NCBI GenBank assembly: GCA_038260025.1
Contig: JBBSOF010000012.1
Location: 7,603 to 71,602 of the forward strand
Direction of reading: 5' to 3'
DNA: 64,000 bases
DNA from: Phycisphaerales bacterium
GTDB lineage: Bacteria > Planctomycetota > Phycisphaerae > Phycisphaerales > UBA1924
Under the pieces are notes generated by a model. It was not told the DNA's origin, searched no databases, and worked only from the letters and a program-made list of their open reading frames with translations. Made by a program: the position numbers and the translations under genes. How positions within the stretch are numbered: the first letter of the stretch is position 1; each line of letters opens with the position of its first letter. Shown in pieces: positions 7,571 to 27,961 of the stretch.

Positions 7571-7648
7571 GCCCTCCCTGACGGTCGGGCTACTTGCTGG
7601 GCGGAAATGGCCAAGGCCCTTCCTTACGGTCGGGCTACTTGTTCGGCG
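7571..7648. repeat. two 33-nt direct repeats, 45-nt period
   Basis: gccctccctgacggtcgggctacttgctgggcg (7571-7603) versus gcccttccttacggtcgggctacttgttcggcg (7616-7648), 29/33 identical by hand. The second copy encodes the last codons and stop of the histidine kinase. Confidence 0.6.
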
Positions 7649-9966
7649 CAGGGGAGTTCGAGCGTGGCGCGGACGCCGACGGGCAGATTTTCCAGGCGGA
7701 TGTCGCCGTCGCAGGCGCGGGCCAGACGGCGAGCGCGGGTGAGGCCTAGGCCCTTGCCGCGGCCGGCGCCGCGCTCGCTGAAGAATGGATCAAACGCATG
7801 CGTGCGGGCCTTGTCGCTCAGGCCGGGGCCGTTGTCCTGCACTTCGAGCACCATCACGCGGCCCAGGGTGCGGGCGGTCAGGGAGATCGGCCCATTGGGG
7901 CACGCCTCGAGGGCATTGCAAATCAGTTCGGTCAGGGCCGCGGTGGTCGCGTCGGGGTCAAGGTGTGCATCGGTGGCATCGACCTGCACGCTGATGGCGG
8001 TGGCGTTGCCGCTGAGGCGCGATCGCGCGGCCGCGATGGCGGCGCTGATCAGGTCGCCAATGTTCACTGCACGCGGCCGCAGCGTGGGGACTTCCGAGAG
8101 CAGGTGCAGGCTGGAGATGAGGCTGCTGAGGTCGCTGGCGGCGCTGGCGATGGCCTCGGCTGCCGCGCGGTCACGCTCGTTCTCGAGGCGGGAGAGCAGG
8201 AGTTGGCCATGCCCGGCGATGACGGTGAGCGGGTTGTTCATCTCGTGCGCTGCGCCAGCGGTGGTCTCGCCCAGGCGGGCCATGGATTCCTTTTCGGCGA
8301 GCAGCGCCTGCATCTCGGCCACGGCGCGGTTGCTTTCAACGAGTTGATCGTGCAGGCGGCGGCAGCCCTCCCGCTCCGCGGCAGCCGACAACGCGAAGCC
8401 CCACGTGGCGGTCACGGCGCGGAGAGCCTTGGGCGCGAGCCCCTCGCCCATGTCGCGGTCGTTGATCATCACGGCTGCGAGCTGGCCTTCGCGCTGGTTG
8501 GGCACGGTGGGCATGGGCAGCGGCATGAGGCGCAGTCGCCGCAGGTCCGGGCCGTTGACGAGGTGGTCGCTGAGCCAGGGCAGCAACCCCAGCACCGAGA
8601 CATTCAGCTGGGTTGCGGACGTCAGCGATGCGAGCGTGGCTCCGCCGACGCGCGCGGGTGGAGCCTCCATGATCTGTGCCTCGATGGGCAGGCCGTCGGG
8701 CCCCAGTTGCACGATGCGCCAGGGCTCATCGGGGCTGGTCTGCACCAGCACGGCATAGAAGCCTTCACCAAAGGCCGACCATGCGGACTGGGCCACGACA
8801 CCCATGGTGTCGGTGATCGTGCGGCGCATCGCGCCCAGCGCGTGGAACTGCTCGACGGCCTCGAGCACGCGGGCCTGTGACTGGCTCTGGTTCGCCCGCT
8901 CCTGCAGGGCCGTGTTGAGGTCGCTCAGTTGGCGGTTGGCGTTGGCGACCGACTCGAGCAGCAGGCTGGGGGGCGTGGTGTCGTCCAGGCCCAGCACTTT
9001 CAAGCGGTCGGCAACGGCGCCGTGCAGGGGCGCGGCAATGAGGGATGGCCCGCCGCTGCGCAGGTTCATTGCCTGCCACAAGGCATCGGCATCGGGCGGC
9101 TGGCCGAAGTCGCCGCTCCACCCAAGGTGCAGGCGGCGGCAGAGCGCCTTGGCGACGGTGATGATGCCGATCAGCGGGCGGTCGGGCGTGTCGGGCAGCA
9201 CGCTATACGCCTGCCCGTGCATCCACACAACATGCTGGATGGAGTGGGGCAGGCCCCAGTGCTCGGCGACGCGCCGCCCCGCGCTGTGGTGGTCCAGCCC
9301 CAGCACCGCGCGCTCGACAGCTGCGCTGTCGCACGCCCGCCGCTGCGCCACCTCCAGCACGCGCTGGTAGCTGCGGGGCAGGACCAGGTCGAGAACCAGT
9401 TTGCCAACGTCGTGCAGCAGGCCGGCGAGGAACGCTTCCTCGGGCAGCACCCGCAGCTTGGGGTTGTGCTGGGCCGTGAGTTCTGCCGCGCATGCCACGG
9501 CGATGGAGTGCTTCCAGAAACCGTGGCGGTCGAAAATCGGCTTGGCGGCGTCGTCTGCGCCTTCAGCTGTGGCGACGGCGGCGTCGAGCTGCTGACGCGC
9601 CTCATCATCCTCTCGGGTCATCAGGTCGTACACGCTCACGCTCAGGGCCGCGGACCGCACGGCCTCGATCCCCAGCATGAGCACGGCGCGCTTGACGGTG
9701 GTGATGCGGTCGCCCAGGCCGCGGTCGGCCTTACGGCACAGCCCCAGGATCCGTGCCGACAGCGCGGGGTCGCTCTCGATGATCTTGACCACATCGCCGA
9801 TCAGCACCTCGTCGATGGTGCCGATCGAGAGCAGCCTCGCGGCCACCGGCGACAGCGTGGGGAGCGTGCGGACCCGCTCCAGGATGAGCTCAACCTGGCG
9901 CGCCCTCGCATCCGCCGCGGACGATGCCGCGGGGCTTCCGGGAGGTGTTGCCGCCTTGTCTGGCAT
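7624..9966 (-). CDS. HDOD domain-containing sensor histidine kinase
   Basis: N-terminal HDOD-like region (LPTLSPVAARLLSI...VKIIESDPALSARILGLCRKA...LLHDVGKLVL). C-terminal HisKA H-box AAHEMNNPLTVI and HATPase_c motifs (DNGPGL, GKGLGL). Confidence 0.85.
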   Translation of the reverse strand: MPDKAATPPGSPAASSAADARARQVELILERVRTLPTLSPVAARLLSIGTIDEVLIGDVVKIIESDPALSARILGLCRKADRGLGDRITTVKRAVLMLGIEAVRSAALSVSVYDLMTREDDEARQQLDAAVATAEGADDAAKPIFDRHGFWKHSIAVACAAELTAQHNPKLRVLPEEAFLAGLLHDVGKLVLDLVLPRSYQRVLEVAQRRACDSAAVERAVLGLDHHSAGRRVAEHWGLPHSIQHVVWMHGQAYSVLPDTPDRPLIGIITVAKALCRRLHLGWSGDFGQPPDADALWQAMNLRSGGPSLIAAPLHGAVADRLKVLGLDDTTPPSLLLESVANANRQLSDLNTALQERANQSQSQARVLEAVEQFHALGAMRRTITDTMGVVAQSAWSAFGEGFYAVLVQTSPDEPWRIVQLGPDGLPIEAQIMEAPPARVGGATLASLTSATQLNVSVLGLLPWLSDHLVNGPDLRRLRLMPLPMPTVPNQREGQLAAVMINDRDMGEGLAPKALRAVTATWGFALSAAAEREGCRRLHDQLVESNRAVAEMQALLAEKESMARLGETTAGAAHEMNNPLTVIAGHGQLLLSRLENERDRAAAEAIASAASDLSSLISSLHLLSEVPTLRPRAVNIGDLISAAIAAARSRLSGNATAISVQVDATDAHLDPDATTAALTELICNALEACPNGPISLTARTLGRVMVLEVQDNGPGLSDKARTHAFDPFFSERGAGRGKGLGLTRARRLARACDGDIRLENLPVGVRATLELPCAEQVARP

Positions 9967-10623: not shown

Positions 10624-11198
10624 GACGTTGCCCCTCATGCACGCGTCCTCCTGGTTCAGCGTTCCGGGCCAGACACAGCCCAGAATGCCCGCGTGTCACA
10701 ACCGTCTATCGAGCCCCACTTTCTCCAACTTCACGACCGCGCCGGACGACGAGTCCGGAAACACACGCCCTGTCCAACCCTTTCGCCCCACACGGCGCAG
10801 CCCATCCCACGCTGCCGCACCCCGGGCTGAAAAGGGGTGTGTGACGCGGGCGGTTACTGGACGTGGAACGCGTGGCCGCCCAGCGCCGGCAGCATGTGAA
10901 AGGGTGTTCGAGCGTGGCAAGGGCGTATGGGAAGTTGCAAGCGGGAGCCCTGCCGGCACCCCCGGCAGTCATCAGTCACGGCGTGGAAAACACGCACACG
11001 CACGTGACCGTCCCTTCCTATTCACCCCGAATCGTTTCGCGGTTCCCTCGTTGGGGGTTATACCGGGTAACGTGGGTCCTATAGAGAAGGGCGCATCAGT
11101 GTGCCGCATGGGGGTGGAACCTCGGGGGCGTGACATGCGAACAATCCCAACTTCTGTCCCAGGCCTTTGTTCCTTTGAACCCCCGATGGAGATTGCCC

Positions 11199-12074
11199 AT
11201 GCGTACCCCGCTTCTTCTTGCCACGATTGCCCTTGCAACGTCCACCGCGATGGCGCAGGTGCAGCTGTATGACAACGGCACGTTCGTGACGGCAATGGGC
11301 GTTGGCGCGAATGGCGCGGACGTCGCGGTGACTCAGACGGGCATCGTGACCTCGCTTGGCAACGGCTTCGATGTGGCCCCGCCCAACGGTCCCATCAAGA
11401 TCGCGGACAACTTCACGGTCCCCGCGGACGGGTGGGATCTCTCGAGCATGAACTGGTACGAGGTGCAGAGCCAGTCGAGCGCCAACCTCTACACCGACTT
11501 CCGTTTCCGCGGGGCCTACGTCGAGGTGTACCTGGGCAACCCGCACTTTGGCGGCACGCTGGTGGCGGGCGACATGACCACCAACCGCCTGACCGGTGGC
11601 GCGTGGAGCGGGGCTTACCGCGTCAGCTCCAGCGCACAGACCAATCAGCAACGGCCGATCTTCCGGCTCGACATCGACATGTCATGGTGCCCGGTGCTGC
11701 CCGAGGGTGAGTACTGGGTCGCCGTGTCGGCCTCGGGCGATGCTTCGACGACGGGCGCGGTTGGCAGCGTGCCCATCCCCCAGCAGGCGGGCCACAACGC
11801 CGAGCAGTTCTTCAACCAGAACTGGATCAGCGTGCCCATCGACTTCCCCTTCCGCCTGTTTGGCGATGTGGCAACCACGTGCGGCACGCCAGACTTTGAC
11901 GGCGACGGCGACGTCGGGACCGATGCCGACATCGAGGCCTTCTTCGCCTGCCTGGGCGGCAACTGCTGCGCCACCTGCTTCAGCGGCGGCGCCGACTTCG
12001 ATGGCGACGGCGATGTGGGCACCGATGCGGATATCGAGGCGTTCTTCCGCATTCTTGCGGGGGGGGCGTGCTGA
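11199..12074 (+). CDS. secreted protein with C-terminal tandem GC-type dockerin-like module
   Basis: Signal peptide MRTPLLLATIALATSTAMAQ and GGAG SD. The C-terminus is CGTPDFDGDGDVGTDADIEAFFACLGGNCCATCFSGGADFDGDGDVGTDADIEAFFRILAGGAC-stop. Confidence 0.7.
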   Translation: MRTPLLLATIALATSTAMAQVQLYDNGTFVTAMGVGANGADVAVTQTGIVTSLGNGFDVAPPNGPIKIADNFTVPADGWDLSSMNWYEVQSQSSANLYTDFRFRGAYVEVYLGNPHFGGTLVAGDMTTNRLTGGAWSGAYRVSSSAQTNQQRPIFRLDIDMSWCPVLPEGEYWVAVSASGDASTTGAVGSVPIPQQAGHNAEQFFNQNWISVPIDFPFRLFGDVATTCGTPDFDGDGDVGTDADIEAFFACLGGNCCATCFSGGADFDGDGDVGTDADIEAFFRILAGGAC

Positions 12075-12080
12075 AAGGCA

Positions 12081-12293
12081 TCACCCTAGCACAAATGACC
12101 GCTCATTCCACAGCTTGTCAAACCGCTCGGACAGCCCAGCCCTTTCCGGCAGGTGCTGTGCGCACGCGATGAGCAGGTCCACAAGCCCTTCGTAGTCGCT
12201 GACGGCAATGAACGCGCGCCCATTCGTTGCGACAATTGGCGCGGCCAAATGTGGGTTGAACTGCTCACACATGCTGTGGCTGTCGGCGACCAC
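12081..12293 (-). pseudogene. 3'-terminal remnant of an M42-like peptidase paralog
   Basis: Encodes ..RAFIAVSDYEGLVDLLIACAQHLPERAGLSERFDKLWNERSFVLG, nearly identical to the C-terminus of the 13603..14787 gene. 113 nt (12106-12218) match 13628-13740 with 3 mismatches. No upstream catalytic part is present. Confidence 0.7.
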
Positions 12294-12364
12294 CTTATTA
12301 AGGCAGTGTCATCCAAACCCATTGTGTGCTGGCAAGCGGGGAGGATAATCAATATCCAACTAGG

Positions 12365-12392
12365 TTGACATGTGGGCAGATTCGAGTAGATT
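12365..12392 (+). promoter_or_regulatory. candidate sigma70-type promoter for 12435 gene
   Basis: TTGACA (12365-12370), 16-nt spacer, TAGATT (12387-12392), in an AT-rich stretch ~45 nt upstream of the ATG. Consensus match only. Confidence 0.3.
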
Positions 12393-12434
12393 CTAGACGG
12401 TTGTGGGCGTGTTGCATCATCGAAAGGTTGAAGC

Positions 12435-13124
12435 ATGCGAGCGTTGTGGGTGATGATCGCGTCGGCGGGGTGCTCCGCAGTTGCCGCGGCGGGACCGGTG
12501 TTCTTTGATGACTTTGACGGTGATGCCTTGCTGCCTCACTGGGTGCAGCCTCCTGCCACCAACTGGGACTATCAGGTGGCCAACGGCCGACTAACCGTTT
12601 CGCGCTTACGGTACCCTTCCAGCCCCAAATCGACGGGCAACTACACTGGTATTGGCGCGGGCTTTGCCCAACAGAACGGCGACTTCCGCATGGACGCATG
12701 GGTCGGGTGGGAGGTGGGTCAAAGTCCGCACCGTCTGGACGTTTCGGTGCTCACGGCCTCCCCGCCGTCAGGATTCCTCGCGACCTTTTCTTATAATTCG
12801 GGATCTCTCGTTTTCGGCGTGAACGGAGGCGCTGCGCGAACCATTCCCGCCCCGGTCGCGGGCATCCACCAAATTACGATTGGTCGCGAGGGATCAAGCT
12901 TCTACTTTGGGCTTGACGGTGTTCATGTGGGAACCTTCGCGGACCCCTTCCAAGCCCCTGCGGGAGGAATCTATTTCTTTTTTGTCGGGCCTTACCCTGG
13001 AACACTGGCGCCGCTGACCGTGGATCGAGTGCAGGTCGTGCCGGTACCCAACGCTCTTCTGTTCGCGGGTGCTTCGGGCTGTTTATTGACCTTTCGGCGG
13101 AGGTGCATTACCTCGGCCTCGTAG
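12435..13124 (+). CDS. PEP-CTERM-tailed secreted protein (lectin/LamG-like fold suspected)
   Basis: Signal peptide MRALWVMIASAGCSAVAAAG. C-terminus VPVPNALLFAGASGCLLTFRRR shows the PEP-CTERM-like pattern (P-rich motif, TM, Arg cluster). Lower GC than its neighbours. Confidence 0.65.
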   Translation: MRALWVMIASAGCSAVAAAGPVFFDDFDGDALLPHWVQPPATNWDYQVANGRLTVSRLRYPSSPKSTGNYTGIGAGFAQQNGDFRMDAWVGWEVGQSPHRLDVSVLTASPPSGFLATFSYNSGSLVFGVNGGAARTIPAPVAGIHQITIGREGSSFYFGLDGVHVGTFADPFQAPAGGIYFFFVGPYPGTLAPLTVDRVQVVPVPNALLFAGASGCLLTFRRRCITSAS

Positions 13125-13152
13125 ACGACACGCTATGGAAGGAGCAACTCCA

Positions 13153-13520
13153 ATGAACATTGTGAAAACATATCTTGGGCTTTTCGCGGCATGCACCCGG
13201 CGCTGGCCCAGCAAGGTGCGTGGCAAACGCCCATCGCCATAAGTCTTGGCAACCAGCCGGTTACCGCCGTTCACATGATGCACGTGTACAACGGCGTCGA
13301 GGGCAAGGTGCTGATCATCCCGACCCAGACCGCCGCAGCGCAGAACTGCCCTGGTGGGATGGACCTGGCATCCGACTTTGCAACACTCTGGACGCCACCC
13401 GCTGCCACGGCCATACCTGGGAGCCCGGGTACTTTTGTTTCCGTCCCCCATTGCCGGACGTACATGTTCTGCGAGGGGCACTGTGCCCTCGCCGATGGCC
13501 GTGTCCTCACCGCACGGGTT
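13153..13520 (+). pseudogene. frameshifted, truncated glyoxal/galactose oxidase-like N-terminal fragment
   Basis: ATG at 13153 with an SD gives signal-like MNIVKTYLGLFAA, then stops at 13242. The +1 frame from 13191 continues HPALAQQGAWQTP..AVHMMHV..GKVLII..LWTP..MFCEGHCALADGRVLTA, resembling the Glyoxal_oxid_N pattern. Similarity is lost ~90 nt before the peptidase stop. Confidence 0.5.
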
Positions 13521-13602
13521 TCAGCGCGTGTGCTGTCGGGCATCCAGGGGTTACGCACCCGAGCCTTCGCCGCGGCGGCTCCGTCTCGGCTTCGCAAGAG
13601 CG

Positions 13603-14787
13603 TTAGTGGAGAACGAACGAGCGGTCGTTCCACAGCTTCTCAAACCGCTCGGACAGCCCAGCCCTCTCCGGCAGGTGCTGTGCGCACGCGATGAGCAGGT
13701 CCACAAGCCCTTCGTAGTCGCTGACGGCAATGAACTCGCGTCCCACGCGCGGGGGCGAGGTGTTGGTCCCGGCCTGCACTGCCGCGAGGTCGGCCATGTT
13801 GTGGTAGTTGCCCAGAGGCAGGCACACGCAGGTTGCCTCCAGCCCCGCGTTGAAGAACACCGACGCCTCGCACGCGCCGCCCGCCATCAGCTTGCGCTGC
13901 CACTTCCACGCCGGTAGATCCGCCTGCTTCTGCGATGCGTGGGGCGTGGCTGGGCCGCCGGCGATCTCTTCCGCGCGCTTGGCGATCGCGTCGGTCAGCG
14001 TGGGCGAGAACACGCTGATGCGGTCACCCACCCGCACGATCGGCCCGCCGCCGATGGGAGACTCGGGAAAACTGCGGCTGTTCTCCAGTGCAATCACGCG
14101 GGAAGCCTTGGGGATGGTGGCGAGGCGCACGGCCGCGATGGCGCCGATGAACCCGATCTCTTCCGCCCGCGTGAACAGCAGGGATGCGTTCGCGGAGGGG
14201 TCCGCGATGATGGCGTCCATTGCGGCGAGCGCCGCGGCTGCCGCGGCAAGGTCATCGCACGCCTGCGTGTGCACGATGCCATCGATCACTTCCGCCGGCG
14301 CAAACTCCCACACACCCACATCGCCCACGCGCAGGTCTGCCGCGCTTTCAAGCTCCGCCTGGTAGTGCTTGAACGGCTCGGTCTGGCCGGTGGGGCCCGT
14401 CAGCCGCGCGCTGTGGCGGCCATCTTCGGCATCCACCAGCGTGATGCGGGCGTCCTTGAAGTAGTCATCCATCACGCCGCCGCGGAAAGAGAGCTCAACG
14501 ACGGTGGGGGCGATGATGCGCTCGACGACAAACGCGGGGTGGTCGAGGTGCGCGGTAAAATAAACCGGACGGTCACCGGTTGGGCGTCCTTTCAGCGCCA
14601 CGACCAGGTTGCCCGCGGCGTCCGCCTTCATCTCCAGCGACGGCCGCGCGGCAACCCAGTCCGTGATCCAGCGGATGACGCGGCCTTCGCGCCCGCTTGC
14701 GGTGGGGGTGGAGGTCAGGTCCAGCAGCCATTGCAGGTGCTGCGCCCGCTGTGTCGAGGAGACTGTGGTGCGCGCCGGAGTATCCAT
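13603..14787 (-). CDS. clan MH (M42/M20-like) metallopeptidase
   Basis: GREGRVIRWITDWV..DAAGNLVVAL..VYFTAHLDHPAFVV..HTQACDDLAAAAA..FTRAEEIGFIGA fit the M42-type aminopeptidase/endoglucanase-like family. The exact family is not certain. Confidence 0.7.
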   Translation of the reverse strand: MDTPARTTVSSTQRAQHLQWLLDLTSTPTASGREGRVIRWITDWVAARPSLEMKADAAGNLVVALKGRPTGDRPVYFTAHLDHPAFVVERIIAPTVVELSFRGGVMDDYFKDARITLVDAEDGRHSARLTGPTGQTEPFKHYQAELESAADLRVGDVGVWEFAPAEVIDGIVHTQACDDLAAAAAALAAMDAIIADPSANASLLFTRAEEIGFIGAIAAVRLATIPKASRVIALENSRSFPESPIGGGPIVRVGDRISVFSPTLTDAIAKRAEEIAGGPATPHASQKQADLPAWKWQRKLMAGGACEASVFFNAGLEATCVCLPLGNYHNMADLAAVQAGTNTSPPRVGREFIAVSDYEGLVDLLIACAQHLPERAGLSERFEKLWNDRSFVLH

Positions 14788-25561: not shown

Positions 25562-27961
25562 TTAGCAGGGGTTGCCCGCCAGCACGCGGAAGAACGCCTC
25601 GATGTCCGAGTCGGTGCCGACGTCGCCATCGCCGTCGAAGTCCGCGCCCAGCATCCAGCACGTGGAGCAGCAGTTGCCGCCCAGGCATGCGAAGAACGCC
25701 TCGATGTCGGCGTCGGTGCCGCTGTCGCCATCACCGTCAAAGTCGGCCGAGCCGCACTGCGGCAGCGGGGCGAGCACCATCGCCGAGGCGCTGGTCGCGG
25801 TGTTGTTGGCGGTTGCGGGCTTGAAGAGGCCGACGCTGACTGCCGCGGGGATCGGCGCCACGTTGGCGTCGAAGCGGAAGTTGTAGAGCGTGCCCCAGCG
25901 GAGTGCATTGGCATCATCGCCGCCTGTCGCGGCGTTGTACGCCTCGGGGCAACTCCACACCACATTGCCGCCCGTCTTGGCACCCGTCCAGTTGTCCAGG
26001 TTCAGGGCCGTGTTGGGGTAGGGCTCGCCGGAGTGGGCGAAGACGCCGTGGAAGCCGACGTTGGTCACCACCGCGCTGGGGTCGATGGGCACCGAGAAGG
26101 AACCGCCGTTGCGGTCGGCGTTCATGTTGTAGACCGCGTACTCGTAGTGCCAGGTGCCGTTGCCATTGTCCGTCACCTTGCAGCCGACAACAAAGCGGCC
26201 GATGATGCCAGCGGAGCTGAAGGTCTGGTCGAGGTAGTCGGCGTTGTCCATCCGCACGGTGGGGTCAAAGTCGGCCCAGGCGTGGATGCCGGCCTTGAAG
26301 CGGATGGTGTTGCCCGCGAACGTCGGCGAGCCGCCGCTCGTGAGCGACGAGGCATTGACAAGGCGGTAGGAGTGGTTGTTCAGGCCATTGGTCGCCGGGA
26401 GCACTCCGCGAGTGAACTGAGCATCGTCCTGCGTCACGTAGTGGGCATCGACGAAGTACTGGGCGCCGTTATTCAGGGCGGGCGTCACATCGTTGGTGAA
26501 TACTTGGAGGCGGCGGCCGATCGTCGCCGGAGCCGCGGGGGCGCTGAAGGGGAAGGGGTAGACAGCGGTGGTGGCGTTCACCTGCGAGCGCGGCCCGAGG
26601 CCGCCCTGGCTGCCGTTAAGGCCCGAGCCGTAGGTGTCGGAGCAGTTGACGCCCAGCTGATCGCCGCCGAAGGGGGGCTGCTGGCAGGTCGCACAGCCGT
26701 TGCTGTTGGTCGACACAAAGCCGTGCTTCAGCCACGACTGGCCGAGCTGCTCAAATCGCCCGTCCTTGAGGCGGTACATGTTCTGCGCGATCACCGGGTG
26801 CTCGTTGGAGCCGTAGCCAGGGTGGTTGTTGTTGTCGATCCAGCTCACGGGGGCATCGCCCAGGTTGCAGGCATCGGTGCCCACCGAGTACGCCGTGACG
26901 TTCACAACGCCGGCCGAGGGATCGACGTCCACCGTGCCGTAGTTGCTCATGTCAGTCAGCGTGCCGATGTACACGTCGGGGCCGGCGGTGGGACAGGCCG
27001 TGACGTTGACAGCAAACACGCCGGTGTTGGTCCGCTGCTCCGCATCGCTCACCGTGAAGGTGATGTTGCGGGGGCCCACGGGCAGGTTCCCGTTGATGGT
27101 CGCGGCATAGCTGAAGCGGTTGTCGCCCGCCGTCACGTCGCCGTTGGTGCCATCGTCATAGAACAGCTGGTTGCTGGACCCGCCGATGTTCGTGAGGTTG
27201 GCGGAAACGGCCAGGCCCGTGCTGGGTGGGCTGAAGCCCGAGGACGCCTGAACCGTGAGCAGAACGTTCACGGGGTTGCCGCAGTTCATGATCGTTGAGG
27301 GGGTGGAAGCGCCCGTGCCCTGCGGCGGGATGGGGCCGTTGGAGCAGGCGAACGTCAGTTGCGTGCCGTTGCCCAGGCCGGTGGTGTTGCAGGAGTACTG
27401 GGCGCTCGGCAGGCTGGTGTGCTGGATGCCGACGGTGGCGCTGCCGCCCGCCTGGTCAAGCGTGCCGTAAACGAACTGGACCTGGCTGGCGTCCTCGTAC
27501 AGGCGGACCTCAAAGTTGGCGTTGCCGCCGCCGCTGAAGTACGTCGTACGCCACTCGATGTTGAACACGCGGTTGGGCGCGACGCCCGAGACCGAGGTGT
27601 AGATGCCGCTGCCGGCGGTGTCGGTCCGCAGATCGTCCCAGTGCGGCTGGAGCGAGATGCCCATGGCGTTGCCAGGGATGCACGTGTTGGAGTAGCCGTT
27701 GTTCGTCGAGCCAAACTGCACGTTGCCGTTGCTGGAAACGGCGGCCTGCCCGTAGGCCTGGCCGTACAGGAGCACGTTGAAGGGGAGGGTAATGTTGGTC
27801 ACGGTGTCATCACCGTGGTTGCCTACATCGGTCGTCCCGGGGACGATGACGCCGGTGGAGCCCGACACGCTGAAACTGGTGCACTGACCCATCGAGGGTG
27901 CGGCCCCTGCCAGGCTGATCAACAACAACGCCGCGGTACCGAGACAATGCTTCCGATGCAT
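25562..27961 (-). CDS. large secreted protein with C-terminal tandem GC-type dockerin-like module
   Basis: Trimmed to MHRKHCLGTAALLLISLAGAAPSMGQ (signal peptide). Asn/Gly/Thr-rich beta-type domains. The C-terminus is CGSADFDGDGDSGTDADIEAFFACLGGNCCSTCWMLGADFDGDGDVGTDSDIEAFFRVLAGNPC-stop. Confidence 0.75.
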   Translation of the reverse strand: MHRKHCLGTAALLLISLAGAAPSMGQCTSFSVSGSTGVIVPGTTDVGNHGDDTVTNITLPFNVLLYGQAYGQAAVSSNGNVQFGSTNNGYSNTCIPGNAMGISLQPHWDDLRTDTAGSGIYTSVSGVAPNRVFNIEWRTTYFSGGGNANFEVRLYEDASQVQFVYGTLDQAGGSATVGIQHTSLPSAQYSCNTTGLGNGTQLTFACSNGPIPPQGTGASTPSTIMNCGNPVNVLLTVQASSGFSPPSTGLAVSANLTNIGGSSNQLFYDDGTNGDVTAGDNRFSYAATINGNLPVGPRNITFTVSDAEQRTNTGVFAVNVTACPTAGPDVYIGTLTDMSNYGTVDVDPSAGVVNVTAYSVGTDACNLGDAPVSWIDNNNHPGYGSNEHPVIAQNMYRLKDGRFEQLGQSWLKHGFVSTNSNGCATCQQPPFGGDQLGVNCSDTYGSGLNGSQGGLGPRSQVNATTAVYPFPFSAPAAPATIGRRLQVFTNDVTPALNNGAQYFVDAHYVTQDDAQFTRGVLPATNGLNNHSYRLVNASSLTSGGSPTFAGNTIRFKAGIHAWADFDPTVRMDNADYLDQTFSSAGIIGRFVVGCKVTDNGNGTWHYEYAVYNMNADRNGGSFSVPIDPSAVVTNVGFHGVFAHSGEPYPNTALNLDNWTGAKTGGNVVWSCPEAYNAATGGDDANALRWGTLYNFRFDANVAPIPAAVSVGLFKPATANNTATSASAMVLAPLPQCGSADFDGDGDSGTDADIEAFFACLGGNCCSTCWMLGADFDGDGDVGTDSDIEAFFRVLAGNPC

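What the first reader, a model, noticed from the sequence alone, without database searches (positions are those of the whole stretch)
12081..13740. Rearrangement scar: 113-nt direct repeat of a peptidase 3' end bracketing a lower-GC insert with two gene remnants
Seen: 12106-12218 and 13628-13740 are 110/113 identical by hand alignment. Both encode the C-terminus (..IAVSDYEGLVDLLIACAQHLPERAGLSERF(D/E)KLWN(E/D)RSFVL.) of an M42-like peptidase. Only the right copy belongs to a full gene (13603..14787). The left copy is a 70-codon stump whose upstream part diverges. Between them lie an AT-rich promoter-like stretch, an intact PEP-CTERM gene (12435..13124), and a glyoxal-oxidase-like N-terminal fragment that is both frameshifted (signal peptide in one frame from 13153, mature part in the +1 frame from 13191) and truncated ~90 nt before the peptidase stop. 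Inference: this is either an insertion that duplicated the target gene's 3' end, as integrative elements do, or recombination between two paralogous peptidase loci followed by decay. No integrase is present.
Basis: partly seen in the sequence, partly recalled or inferred. Interest (0 to 1): 0.6.

Follow-up and report, generated by a model that had tools for sequence, protein, structure and literature searches.

The report
Displaced gene-end scar beside inserted cassette
About 1.4 kb of foreign-looking DNA sits at the end of a housekeeping peptidase gene in an uncultured soil planctomycete, the gene stays whole because its last 47 codons are present twice, and this is a real but fairly ordinary recombination scar with no integrase.

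Summary
The repeat is real. 12106-12218 and 13628-13740 match at 110 of 113 bases. Read in frame, the unit is the last 47 codons plus stop of an M42 peptidase (12081-12224 and 13603-13746). Only the right copy belongs to an intact gene (13603-14787). The two copies are a mosaic: 2 differences in the central 106 nt, but 10 in the last 24 nt, and seven of those are third-codon positions that keep the protein (Fisher p = 4e-7). So one tail comes from a long-separated functional peptidase gene and not from a fresh duplication. Between the copies lie a 51% GC spacer with a promoter-like site, an intact gene for a ConA-like beta-sandwich protein with a PEP-CTERM-like tail, and the frameshifted, truncated first quarter of a glyoxal-oxidase-like gene. 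These two genes are neighbours in at least seven other metagenome contigs. An independent unitig assembly of the source run supports two repeat copies per genome and equal depth for insert and flanks. I read it as a C-terminal-displacement scar: incoming DNA carrying a peptidase 3' end recombined into the resident gene and shunted the old end aside. None of 87 related loci has it. No integrase is present. Which tail is native is unresolved.

The parts
11130..12074 (+). Left flank gene ('geneA'): a secreted protein with a dockerin-like Cys-rich C-terminal module. It is convergent with the stump and stops 6 nt from the stump's stop codon.
   Evidence: ORF. It is 62% identical to the 289-aa gene of L005, which lies in the same neighbourhood (response regulator and HDOD kinase beyond it). 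In L005 a gene with the same C-terminal module ends 8 nt from the peptidase stop.
12081..12224 (-). Dead stump: the last 47 codons plus stop of an M42 peptidase. The tail is 12081-12105 and the near-identical core is 12106-12218.
   Evidence: There is no peptidase homology upstream of 12224. No Pfam or NCBIfam hit for the 70-aa ORF or for overlapping ORFs.
12225..12434 (+). GC-poor spacer (about 51% GC) with a sigma-70-like site, TTGACA-16-TAGATT, at 12365-12392, upstream of the cassette gene.
   Evidence: It has no similarity to any fetched locus, plasmid or phage.
12435..13124 (+). Intact 229-aa gene: signal peptide, ConA-like beta-sandwich domain, and a C-terminal VPVP-helix-RRR (PEP-CTERM-like) tail. 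GC3 is 0.67, against about 0.84 for the neighbouring genes.
   Evidence: The family is rare: 7 relatives at 34-46% identity. AlphaFold2 gives pLDDT 83.1 and pTM 0.77. Foldseek hits CBM, lectin and GH16-type beta-sandwiches, E about 1e-7, TM 0.55-0.60. GC3.
13153..13514 (+). Glyoxal-oxidase-like pseudogene: about the N-terminal 120 codons only. It has a 1-nt frame change near 13190, and homology stops at about 13514.
   Evidence: tblastn E = 2e-21 (L092 gene), 1e-12 (L009 gene) and 1e-6 (L091 signal peptide). Those genes carry Glyoxal_oxid_N, Kelch and GO-like_E_set. Weak NCBIfam GlxA hit, 13.4 bits.
13515..13602 (.). 88 nt of unassigned sequence between the oxidase truncation point and the stop of the intact peptidase gene.
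   Evidence: No similarity to any fetched locus or to the rest of the window. No Rfam match.
13603..13746 (-). Repeat copy in use: the last 47 codons plus stop of the intact peptidase gene.
13603..14787 (-). Intact M42-family peptidase gene (394 aa), a conserved single-copy gene of Phycisphaerales.
   Evidence: Pfam PF05343, 56.8 bits. Orthologues at up to 75% identity in more than 80 Phycisphaerales MAGs.

Best explanation
This is a C-terminal-displacement scar.

MECHANISM (inferred). The ancestor had geneA and the peptidase gene convergent and a few bases apart, as in the relative L005. A piece of DNA from another Phycisphaerales lineage carried a two-gene surface-protein/oxidase module plus the last ~47 codons of that lineage's peptidase gene. 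It recombined reciprocally with the resident gene inside those 47 codons. The most likely route is single-crossover integration of a circularised fragment by host recombination. A less likely route is a site-specific integrase that was later deleted.

RESULT (shown). The peptidase body is joined to one 3' end and stays intact. The other 3' end sits 1.5 kb away, next to geneA, as a dead stump.

MOSAIC (inferred). The near-identical central 106 nt is either the stretch that recombined (heteroduplex resolved to one parent in both copies) or a later gene-conversion tract. The unconverted edges keep the old divergence.

DECAY. Afterwards the oxidase gene decayed by a frameshift and a deletion of about three quarters of the gene. 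The ConA-like gene remained intact with its own promoter-like site.

UNCERTAIN. The direction of displacement (left copy = the original end) and the circular intermediate are inferences.
For: - Repeat and intact or dead status of the two copies.
- Mosaic divergence: centre 2/106, last 8 codons 10/24 with all seven third positions changed and 6 of 7 residues kept, Fisher p = 4e-7. Tail-to-tail identity (14/21) matches the distance to genus-level relatives.
- Homology stops sharply at 12224/13746 and at the stop codons.
- Position: the left tail lies 6 nt from a convergent dockerin-tailed gene. L005 has the same layout, with an 8-nt gap, a geneA orthologue, and the response regulator and HDOD kinase beyond.
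- Foreign look of the insert: 57.6% GC against 65.7% (3.6 sd low), and GC3 0.67 against 0.84. The same gene family has GC3 0.84-0.90 in its other hosts.
- The two cargo genes are a conserved adjacent pair elsewhere: L009/L010, L091, L092, L093, L094, L096/L097.
- Assembly: in Logan's independent unitigs of the source run, the only break is the 69-nt exact run. Its depth is 47.1, against 29.2 for the insert and 26.8 and 25.3 for the flanks. Both tail unitigs are also present in a second sample.
- The same architecture (near-identical core fragment plus a different tip, shunted behind the intact gene) and the same circle model are described for rhs genes (PMC2935791) and for icd/icdC around e14 (PMC13626634).
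Against: - The left tail has GC3 of 3/7. Only 2 of 74 relatives are that low, while the right tail (6/7) looks host-like. That fits the opposite assignment, with the left stump arriving together with the low-GC DNA.
- A donor fragment with a saturated tail but a 98%-identical core needs an extra step, either heteroduplex resolution or gene conversion, for which there is no direct evidence.
- No donor-like arrangement (cassette next to a peptidase gene) was found in 87 peptidase loci or 13 cassette loci.
- No empty-site strain was found, because only two runs hold this sequence.
- The order through the 69-nt exact run is not confirmed by reads. Only contigs were available.
Confidence: 0.55

Rival explanations
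1. The right-hand tail is native and the left stump is foreign. A random fragment of a lower-GC relative (peptidase stump, spacer, ConA-like gene, start of the oxidase gene) was inserted by illegitimate recombination into the gap between geneA and the peptidase gene. The resident gene then converted the middle of the stump.
For: - The left tail's GC3 (3/7) matches the low-GC cargo (GC3 0.67) better than the host (0.84). The right tail (6/7) and 13191-13602 (65.3% GC) look host-like.
- Divergence at both edges of the repeat with an identical centre is what a conversion tract looks like.
Against: - The foreign fragment would have to end exactly at the stump's stop codon and land 6 nt after geneA's stop. 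By chance that would recreate the convergent layout seen in L005.
- The donor would already have to hold a stump|spacer junction.
- Conversion would have to start between sequences only about 70-75% alike.
- The oxidase remnant, which belongs with the ConA-like gene as a pair, would be split between 'foreign' and 'host-like' composition.
Confidence: 0.2
2. It is the remnant of an integrase-bearing element (genomic island or prophage) that used the peptidase 3' end as attB and carried a surrogate end in attP, as e14 does in icd. The deletion that truncated the oxidase gene also removed the integrase and most of the element.
For: - Direct repeats bound the insert, and one of them completes the target gene.
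- A deletion joint is present at about 13514, next to the repeat.
- The known precedent is icd/icdC with e14 (PMC13626634).
Against: - There is no recombinase, tRNA, phage-like or plasmid-like sequence in the insert or its flanks.
- None of 87 related loci has anything inserted at this site with a second gene end, so there is no sign of a used att site.
- The surviving cargo is a chromosomal-type gene pair found without mobility genes elsewhere.
Confidence: 0.12
3. It is an assembly or population artefact. The genome has no insert, and the 1522-bp segment is a separate circle, a tandem array, or belongs to a co-occurring strain. The assembler joined them through the shared 69-nt run.
For: - The unitig graph alone allows flank-repeat-flank plus a 1522-bp cycle.
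- The left-junction unitig has a lower depth, 15.3.
- The second sample shows no contig for 12226-13549.
Against: - Insert depth (29.2) equals flank depth (26.8 and 25.3), and the shared run has about twice that (47.1). This is what one integrated copy predicts.
- Nothing else enters or leaves the shared run, and no other peptidase allele is present in the run.
- 69 nt is shorter than ordinary reads, so an assembler with large k resolves it.
- The low-depth unitig contains a G8 run and shows the same 0.6 ratio in both samples, which points to sequencing bias.
- Coverage of the second sample is patchy everywhere.
- A peptidase gene ending in the low-GC3 left tail would be the odder gene.
Confidence: 0.06
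4. It arose by recombination between two paralogous peptidase loci of the same genome, followed by decay.
For: The two tails look like the ends of two different functional peptidase genes.
Against: - There is only one peptidase body in the window.
- There is no second peptidase-like contig at 80% identity or more in the source run.
- Relatives have one copy per locus, and the protein search found no second copy from this assembly.
- The whole genome could not be searched.
Confidence: 0.05

Closest known systems
C-terminal displacement at rhs loci (Jackson et al. 2009, BMC Genomics 10:584, PMC2935791). The related 'sequential displacement' of T6SS effector modules is ascribed to homology-facilitated illegitimate recombination (PMC5361080).
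   Same: An intact gene is followed by a dissociated fragment made of a partial, nearly identical core plus a different tip, with cargo genes in between. No integrase is involved. The proposed route is a circular intermediate carrying core fragment, tip and intervening genes, which integrates by one homologous crossover and shunts the old tip aside.
   Different: The two tips here are homologous and encode the same residues, so the target protein gains nothing. The payload lies beyond the tip and on the opposite strand. The target is a housekeeping peptidase and not a polymorphic toxin. It is a single event, not an array, and is not recurrent in 87 related loci.
Prophage e14 (and phage 21) in the E. 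coli icd gene, leaving the icdC pseudogene (Hill et al. 1989, from the reference list of PMC13626634; described in PMC13626634).
   Same: The inserted DNA brings a surrogate 3' end that keeps the target gene intact. The native end remains as a C-terminal-fragment pseudogene at the far side. The two ends differ mostly by silent changes.
   Different: e14 is a 15-kb element with its own site-specific recombinase and can excise. Here the insert is 1.4 kb with no recombinase, and there is no evidence that it moves.
Homology-facilitated illegitimate recombination in naturally transformable bacteria (de Vries & Wackernagel 2002; Prudhomme et al. 2002; Meier & Wackernagel 2003, cited from the reference list of PMC5361080; see also PMC3240628).
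   Same: Foreign DNA is captured without mobility genes, using one stretch of homology to a resident gene as an anchor.
   Different: From my own knowledge, the usual product replaces or deletes recipient DNA and does not duplicate the anchor. No microhomology joint could be defined here. Competence of this organism is unknown.

Membership tests
Integrase-mediated integrative element (att-site duplication, e14/icd type) | Direct repeats bound the insert, and one repeat completes the target gene | tested here: met
   12081-12224 and 13603-13746; the right copy ends the intact 394-aa gene.
Integrase-mediated integrative element (att-site duplication, e14/icd type) | A tyrosine or serine recombinase gene lies inside the element or beside it | tested here: not met
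   The ORFs of the insert have no recombinase hit. The flanks are MatE, a radical-SAM methylthiotransferase, a response regulator and an HDOD kinase. There are no tRNA genes in the window.
Integrase-mediated integrative element (att-site duplication, e14/icd type) | The same site is used in related genomes | tested here: not met
   0 of 87 peptidase loci have a second C-terminal hit within about 6 kb.
C-terminal displacement / Campbell-type integration of a circle (rhs model) | A dissociated fragment (partial core plus tip) lies downstream of the intact gene, in direct orientation | tested here: met
   A stump of 47 codons lies 1.4 kb downstream on the same strand.
C-terminal displacement / Campbell-type integration of a circle (rhs model) | Core fragments are nearly identical while the tips are distinct | tested here: met
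   2/106 differences in the core against 10/24 in the last 8 codons, p = 4e-7.
C-terminal displacement / Campbell-type integration of a circle (rhs model) | The tips are non-homologous alternatives with different function | tested here: not met
   The tips encode NERSFVLG and NDRSFVLH, which are homologous and functionally equivalent.
C-terminal displacement / Campbell-type integration of a circle (rhs model) | A circular intermediate carries core fragment, tip and cargo | not testable with these tools
   Only contigs of the runs were available. The unitig graph cannot tell a circle from an integrated copy, and the depths favour integration.
Homology-facilitated illegitimate recombination | An illegitimate joint at a short microhomology lies opposite a homologous anchor | tested here: inconclusive
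   Homology ends at 12221-12224 / 13743-13746 with 2 mismatches in the last 8 nt. No donor sequence is available to define a microhomology.
Peptidase family M42 (Pfam PF05343) | Score above the Pfam gathering cut-off | tested here: met
   56.8 bits against a cut-off of 23.2 for 13603-14787. The 70-aa stump alone gives no hit.
PEP-CTERM sorting domain (Pfam/NCBIfam models) | HMM match to the C-terminal PEP motif, TM helix and basic cluster | tested here: not met
   No Pfam or NCBIfam hit at E <= 1. By eye there is VPVP plus a predicted helix (208-222) plus RRR, and homologues have VPAP...RRRR. It works like such a tail, but membership is unproven.
Glyoxal oxidase / galactose-oxidase kelch propeller | Match to Glyoxal_oxid_N or Kelch models | tested here: inconclusive
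   The window fragment alone gives no Pfam hit and a weak NCBIfam GlxA hit of 13.4 bits. Its full-length homologues hit Kelch_6 above the cut-off, Glyoxal_oxid_N at 36.4 bits against 37.5, and GO-like_E_set. The fragment aligns to them at E = 2e-21.

The most novel reading that the evidence does not exclude
Small chromosomal gene modules may spread between Phycisphaerales genomes without any mobility gene. In this reading they ride on a copy of the 3' end of the conserved neighbouring gene. Host recombination docks 'gene end + module' into the recipient's orthologue, keeps that gene intact, and leaves the old end as a stump. The direct repeats can later loop the module out again as a transferable circle. 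This locus would then be one caught instance, outside toxin and defence systems, of a general integrase-free cassette-exchange route.
Probability: 0.25. Interest if true: 0.45.

Novelty: new member of a known kind. Interest (0 to 1): 0.27.

Why it matters
The locus shows how a conserved housekeeping gene can take up foreign DNA at its end and still stay intact. It also shows that a short 'duplication' can really be a mosaic of two lineages' gene ends, which matters when such repeats are read as att sites or as assembly errors.

It is a Planctomycetota example of the displacement architecture known from rhs/T6SS loci and from icd/e14. The cargo here is a surface lectin-like protein plus a radical-copper-oxidase-type gene, not a toxin or defence gene.

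In passing it defines a conserved two-gene module (ConA-like PEP-CTERM-like protein plus glyoxal-oxidase-like enzyme) that may be worth a functional look.

It does not open a new question by itself.

Tried and rejected
I therefore made no whole-genome search for a paralogue or for other copies of the repeat.

SEARCHES THAT FOUND NOTHING USEFUL.
- Exact look-up of the peptidase protein: not on record.
- A closer relative or an empty-site strain: the best orthologues are 75% identical, and only two runs of one study hold the sequence.
- A donor-like arrangement of cassette next to a peptidase gene: none in 87 peptidase loci or 13 cassette loci.
- DNA homology beyond the repeat, or between the two downstream regions: none above shuffles.
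- Origin of the 88-nt piece and of the spacer: no hit.
- Rfam, tRNA, plasmid and phage searches: nothing.
- The alternative ORFs over the stump (12086-12436 on the minus strand, 12153-12368 on the plus strand): no family.

TESTS THAT STAYED INCONCLUSIVE.
- Raw reads were not available for the runs, only Logan contigs. The order through the 69-nt exact run rests on depths and on graph shape.
- I asked whether the second sample lacks the insert. Its coverage is too patchy to say.
- I tried to decide which tail is native. Synteny points to the left tail and GC3 points to the right tail, so this is left open.

REJECTED. A plain tandem duplication and a transposon-type target duplication are both ruled out, because the tails carry old synonymous divergence and the repeat is 144 nt long.
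Full report
SOURCE AND LIMITS. The window comes from an uncultured Phycisphaerales (Planctomycetota) genome assembled from a soil metagenome. The best protein matches are Phycisphaerales MAG proteins. The only public runs that hold the sequence are a soil and a sediment metagenome of one study. The runs are held only as Logan contigs, not as reads.

THE OBSERVATION. 12106-12218 and 13628-13740 are 110/113 identical. The ungapped repeat reported by the repeat finder is 12088-12221 / 13610-13743, 124/134. It is the longest local direct repeat in the window. Read on the minus strand and in frame, the repeated unit is 12081-12224 against 13603-13746, which is the last 47 codons and the stop of an M42 peptidase.

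The right copy ends an intact 394-aa gene. Its Pfam Peptidase_M42 score is 56.8 bits against a cut-off of 23.2. It aligns end to end with orthologues in more than 80 Phycisphaerales MAGs. The left copy is a stump. Upstream of 12224 there is no DNA similarity above shuffled controls and only a doubtful protein resemblance. The ORFs that overlap it match no family.

The 18 differences in the 144-nt unit are not spread evenly:
- The central 106 nt have 2 differences.
- The last eight sense codons have 10 in 24 nt: AAT/AAC, GAG/GAC, CGG/CGC, TCA/TCG, TTT/TTC, GTG/GTT, CTA/CTC and GGG/CAC. The stop codons also differ (TGA/TAA).
- That is every third position of seven codons, with six of seven residues unchanged (Fisher p = 4e-7 against the centre).
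- The 8 nt at the other edge have 2 differences.

Tail-to-tail identity (14/21) is about what either tail shows to relatives that are 60-75% identical in protein. Silent, saturated divergence cannot arise in a dead copy. So both tails evolved as ends of working peptidase genes in long-separated lineages, and the centre has been made alike recently. This excludes a plain duplication and a transposon-type target duplication.

THE INSERT. 12225-12434 is about 51% GC and holds one sigma-70-like site at 12365-12392.

12435-13124 is an intact gene for a 229-aa protein:
- It has a signal peptide.
- AlphaFold2 models its main domain confidently as a beta-sandwich (pLDDT 83.1).
- The closest solved folds are carbohydrate-binding modules, lectin domains and GH16 glucanases (E about 1e-7, TM 0.55-0.60).
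- Its C-terminal tail is VPVP, a helix, then RRR. That tail looks like a PEP-CTERM signal, but it hits no Pfam or NCBIfam model.
- The family is rare, with seven relatives at 34-46% identity.

In the contigs that hold those relatives, the next gene is a secreted glyoxal-oxidase/kelch-type protein. The loci are L009/L010, L091, L092, L093, L094 and L096/L097. So the two genes form a conserved module.

In the window, the second gene is a remnant:
- 13212-13508 aligns to residues 24-123 of the L092 protein (E = 2e-21).
- The signal peptide lies in another frame, starting at 13153, so there is a one-base frame change near 13190.
- Homology ends at about 13514, which leaves about a quarter of the gene.
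- The following 88 nt match nothing.

Composition: 12219-13190 is 57.6% GC against a window mean of 65.7% (sd 2.2). The ConA-like gene has GC3 of 0.67 against about 0.84 for its neighbours, whereas its homologues have GC3 of 0.84-0.90 in their own genomes. 13191-13602 is 65.3% GC, so the 'lower-GC insert' is only the left kilobase.

IS IT AN ASSEMBLY ARTEFACT? Logan's independent unitigs of the source run reproduce the sequence exactly. They break only at the 69-nt run that is identical in both copies. That run has depth 47.1, the insert 29.2, and the long flanks 26.8 and 25.3. This is as expected for one integrated copy per genome with the repeat present twice. Exactly two paths enter and two paths leave the shared run.

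The left-junction unitig is lower (15.3). It contains a G8 run and shows the same 0.6 ratio in the second sample, so I read this as sequencing bias. No other peptidase-like contig at 80% identity or more exists in the run, which argues against a strain mixture or a close paralogue. The second sample holds both tail unitigs, but its coverage is too thin and patchy to show the interior. A 1522-bp circle plus an uninterrupted gene cannot be excluded from the graph alone. The equal depths make it unlikely.

COMPARATIVE CONTEXT. The peptidase is a conserved single gene in Phycisphaerales. What lies downstream of it varies. L005 shares the neighbourhood: a geneA orthologue at 62% identity, then the HTH_17 response regulator and the HDOD kinase. 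In L005 a gene with the same dockerin-like C-terminal module ends 8 nt from the peptidase stop, convergent with it. L005 DNA aligns with the window's left copy through the stop and the short gap into that module. This places the left stump where the gene's own end would be expected. None of 87 related loci has a second gene end or the cassette beside the peptidase, so this is a single, lineage-specific event and not a used att site.

MECHANISM. The layout is an intact gene, cargo, and then a fragment made of a near-identical partial core plus a different tip, in direct orientation and without a recombinase. This is the layout described as C-terminal displacement at rhs loci. There it is explained by a small circle carrying core fragment, tip and intervening genes, which integrates by one homologous crossover and shunts the incumbent tip aside (PMC2935791). 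A homology-facilitated illegitimate route has been proposed for similar displacement in T6SS clusters (PMC5361080). The icd/icdC pair around e14 is the integrase-driven counterpart (PMC13626634).

I therefore propose that DNA from another lineage carried the module and that lineage's peptidase end, and recombined into the resident gene within the last 47 codons. A reciprocal exchange with a long heteroduplex, or a later conversion between the two copies 1.5 kb apart, would leave an identical centre and diverged edges. That is what is seen. The frameshift and the deletion in the oxidase gene came before or after.

WHAT IS SHOWN AND WHAT IS INFERRED. Shown:
- The repeat and the mosaic divergence.
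- The intact or dead status of the two copies.
- The identity and decay of the cargo, and its odd composition.
- The absence of a recombinase.
- The uniqueness of the event among relatives.

Inferred:
- The circular intermediate.
- The origin of the identical centre.
- The direction of displacement.

THE OPEN POINT. Position says the left tail is native. However, its GC3 (3/7) is as low as in only 2 of 74 relatives, while the right tail (6/7) and the sequence next to it look host-like. The rival reading is a foreign fragment that already held a stump, inserted into the gap and then partly converted. It needs more coincidences: a fragment end exactly at a stop codon, a landing point 6 nt after geneA, and conversion between sequences about 70% alike. 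It is not excluded. A decayed integrase element is possible, because a deletion joint lies next to the right repeat. Nothing phage-, plasmid- or recombinase-like remains.

EARLIER NOTES OF THIS SCAN. The notes list several similar 'gene end twice around a small integrase-less cassette' cases in other phyla. They are unchecked leads and not evidence. They did make me rate this as a further member of a recurring kind and not as something new.

VERDICT. It needs the correction that one end is a surrogate from another lineage. This is a real but fairly ordinary recombination scar of modest interest.

Noticed in passing
window 7573-7605 and 7618-7650: A second, miniature gene-end repeat in the same window. 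Two 33-nt copies are 28/33 identical and lie 45 nt apart. The right copy encodes the last residues (AEQVARP) and the stop of the HDOD histidine kinase (7624-9966, minus strand). The left copy is non-coding, and its 'stop' position reads TCA. It could be a small scar of the same kind.
   Followed up: partly
L009 742-3025; L091 784-1709; L092 753-2911; L093; L094; L096/L097: A conserved two-gene module: a ConA-like beta-sandwich protein with a VPxP-helix-RRR tail, followed within about 60-250 nt by a secreted glyoxal-oxidase/kelch-type gene. The first family is rare (fewer than 20 members found) and has no Pfam or NCBIfam model. In L093 and L094 the first gene is present twice.
   Followed up: partly
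window 11883-12074 and 25564-25747; L005 8185-8367; L002 11187-11378; L099: A Cys-rich, DxDGDG-containing, dockerin-like C-terminal module of about 64 aa ends unrelated secreted proteins in this genome and in its relatives. In the source run its k-mers reach depths of thousands, so it is very common in that community. Recombination between such modules could explain why the gene next to the peptidase differs between L005 (a GSDH-family gene) and the window (geneA).
   Followed up: partly
window 12058-12068: A G8 run in the last codons of geneA coincides with a drop of unitig depth to about 0.6 of the flanks in both samples. This is probably a sequencing bias, but a length-variable homopolymer at the end of a gene would be worth a look in reads.
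   Followed up: no
L009 1713-3025: In L009/L010 the glyoxal-oxidase-like gene is called as two overlapping ORFs (201 and 236 aa). This suggests a frameshift there too, so this gene may decay repeatedly while its partner stays intact.
   Followed up: no
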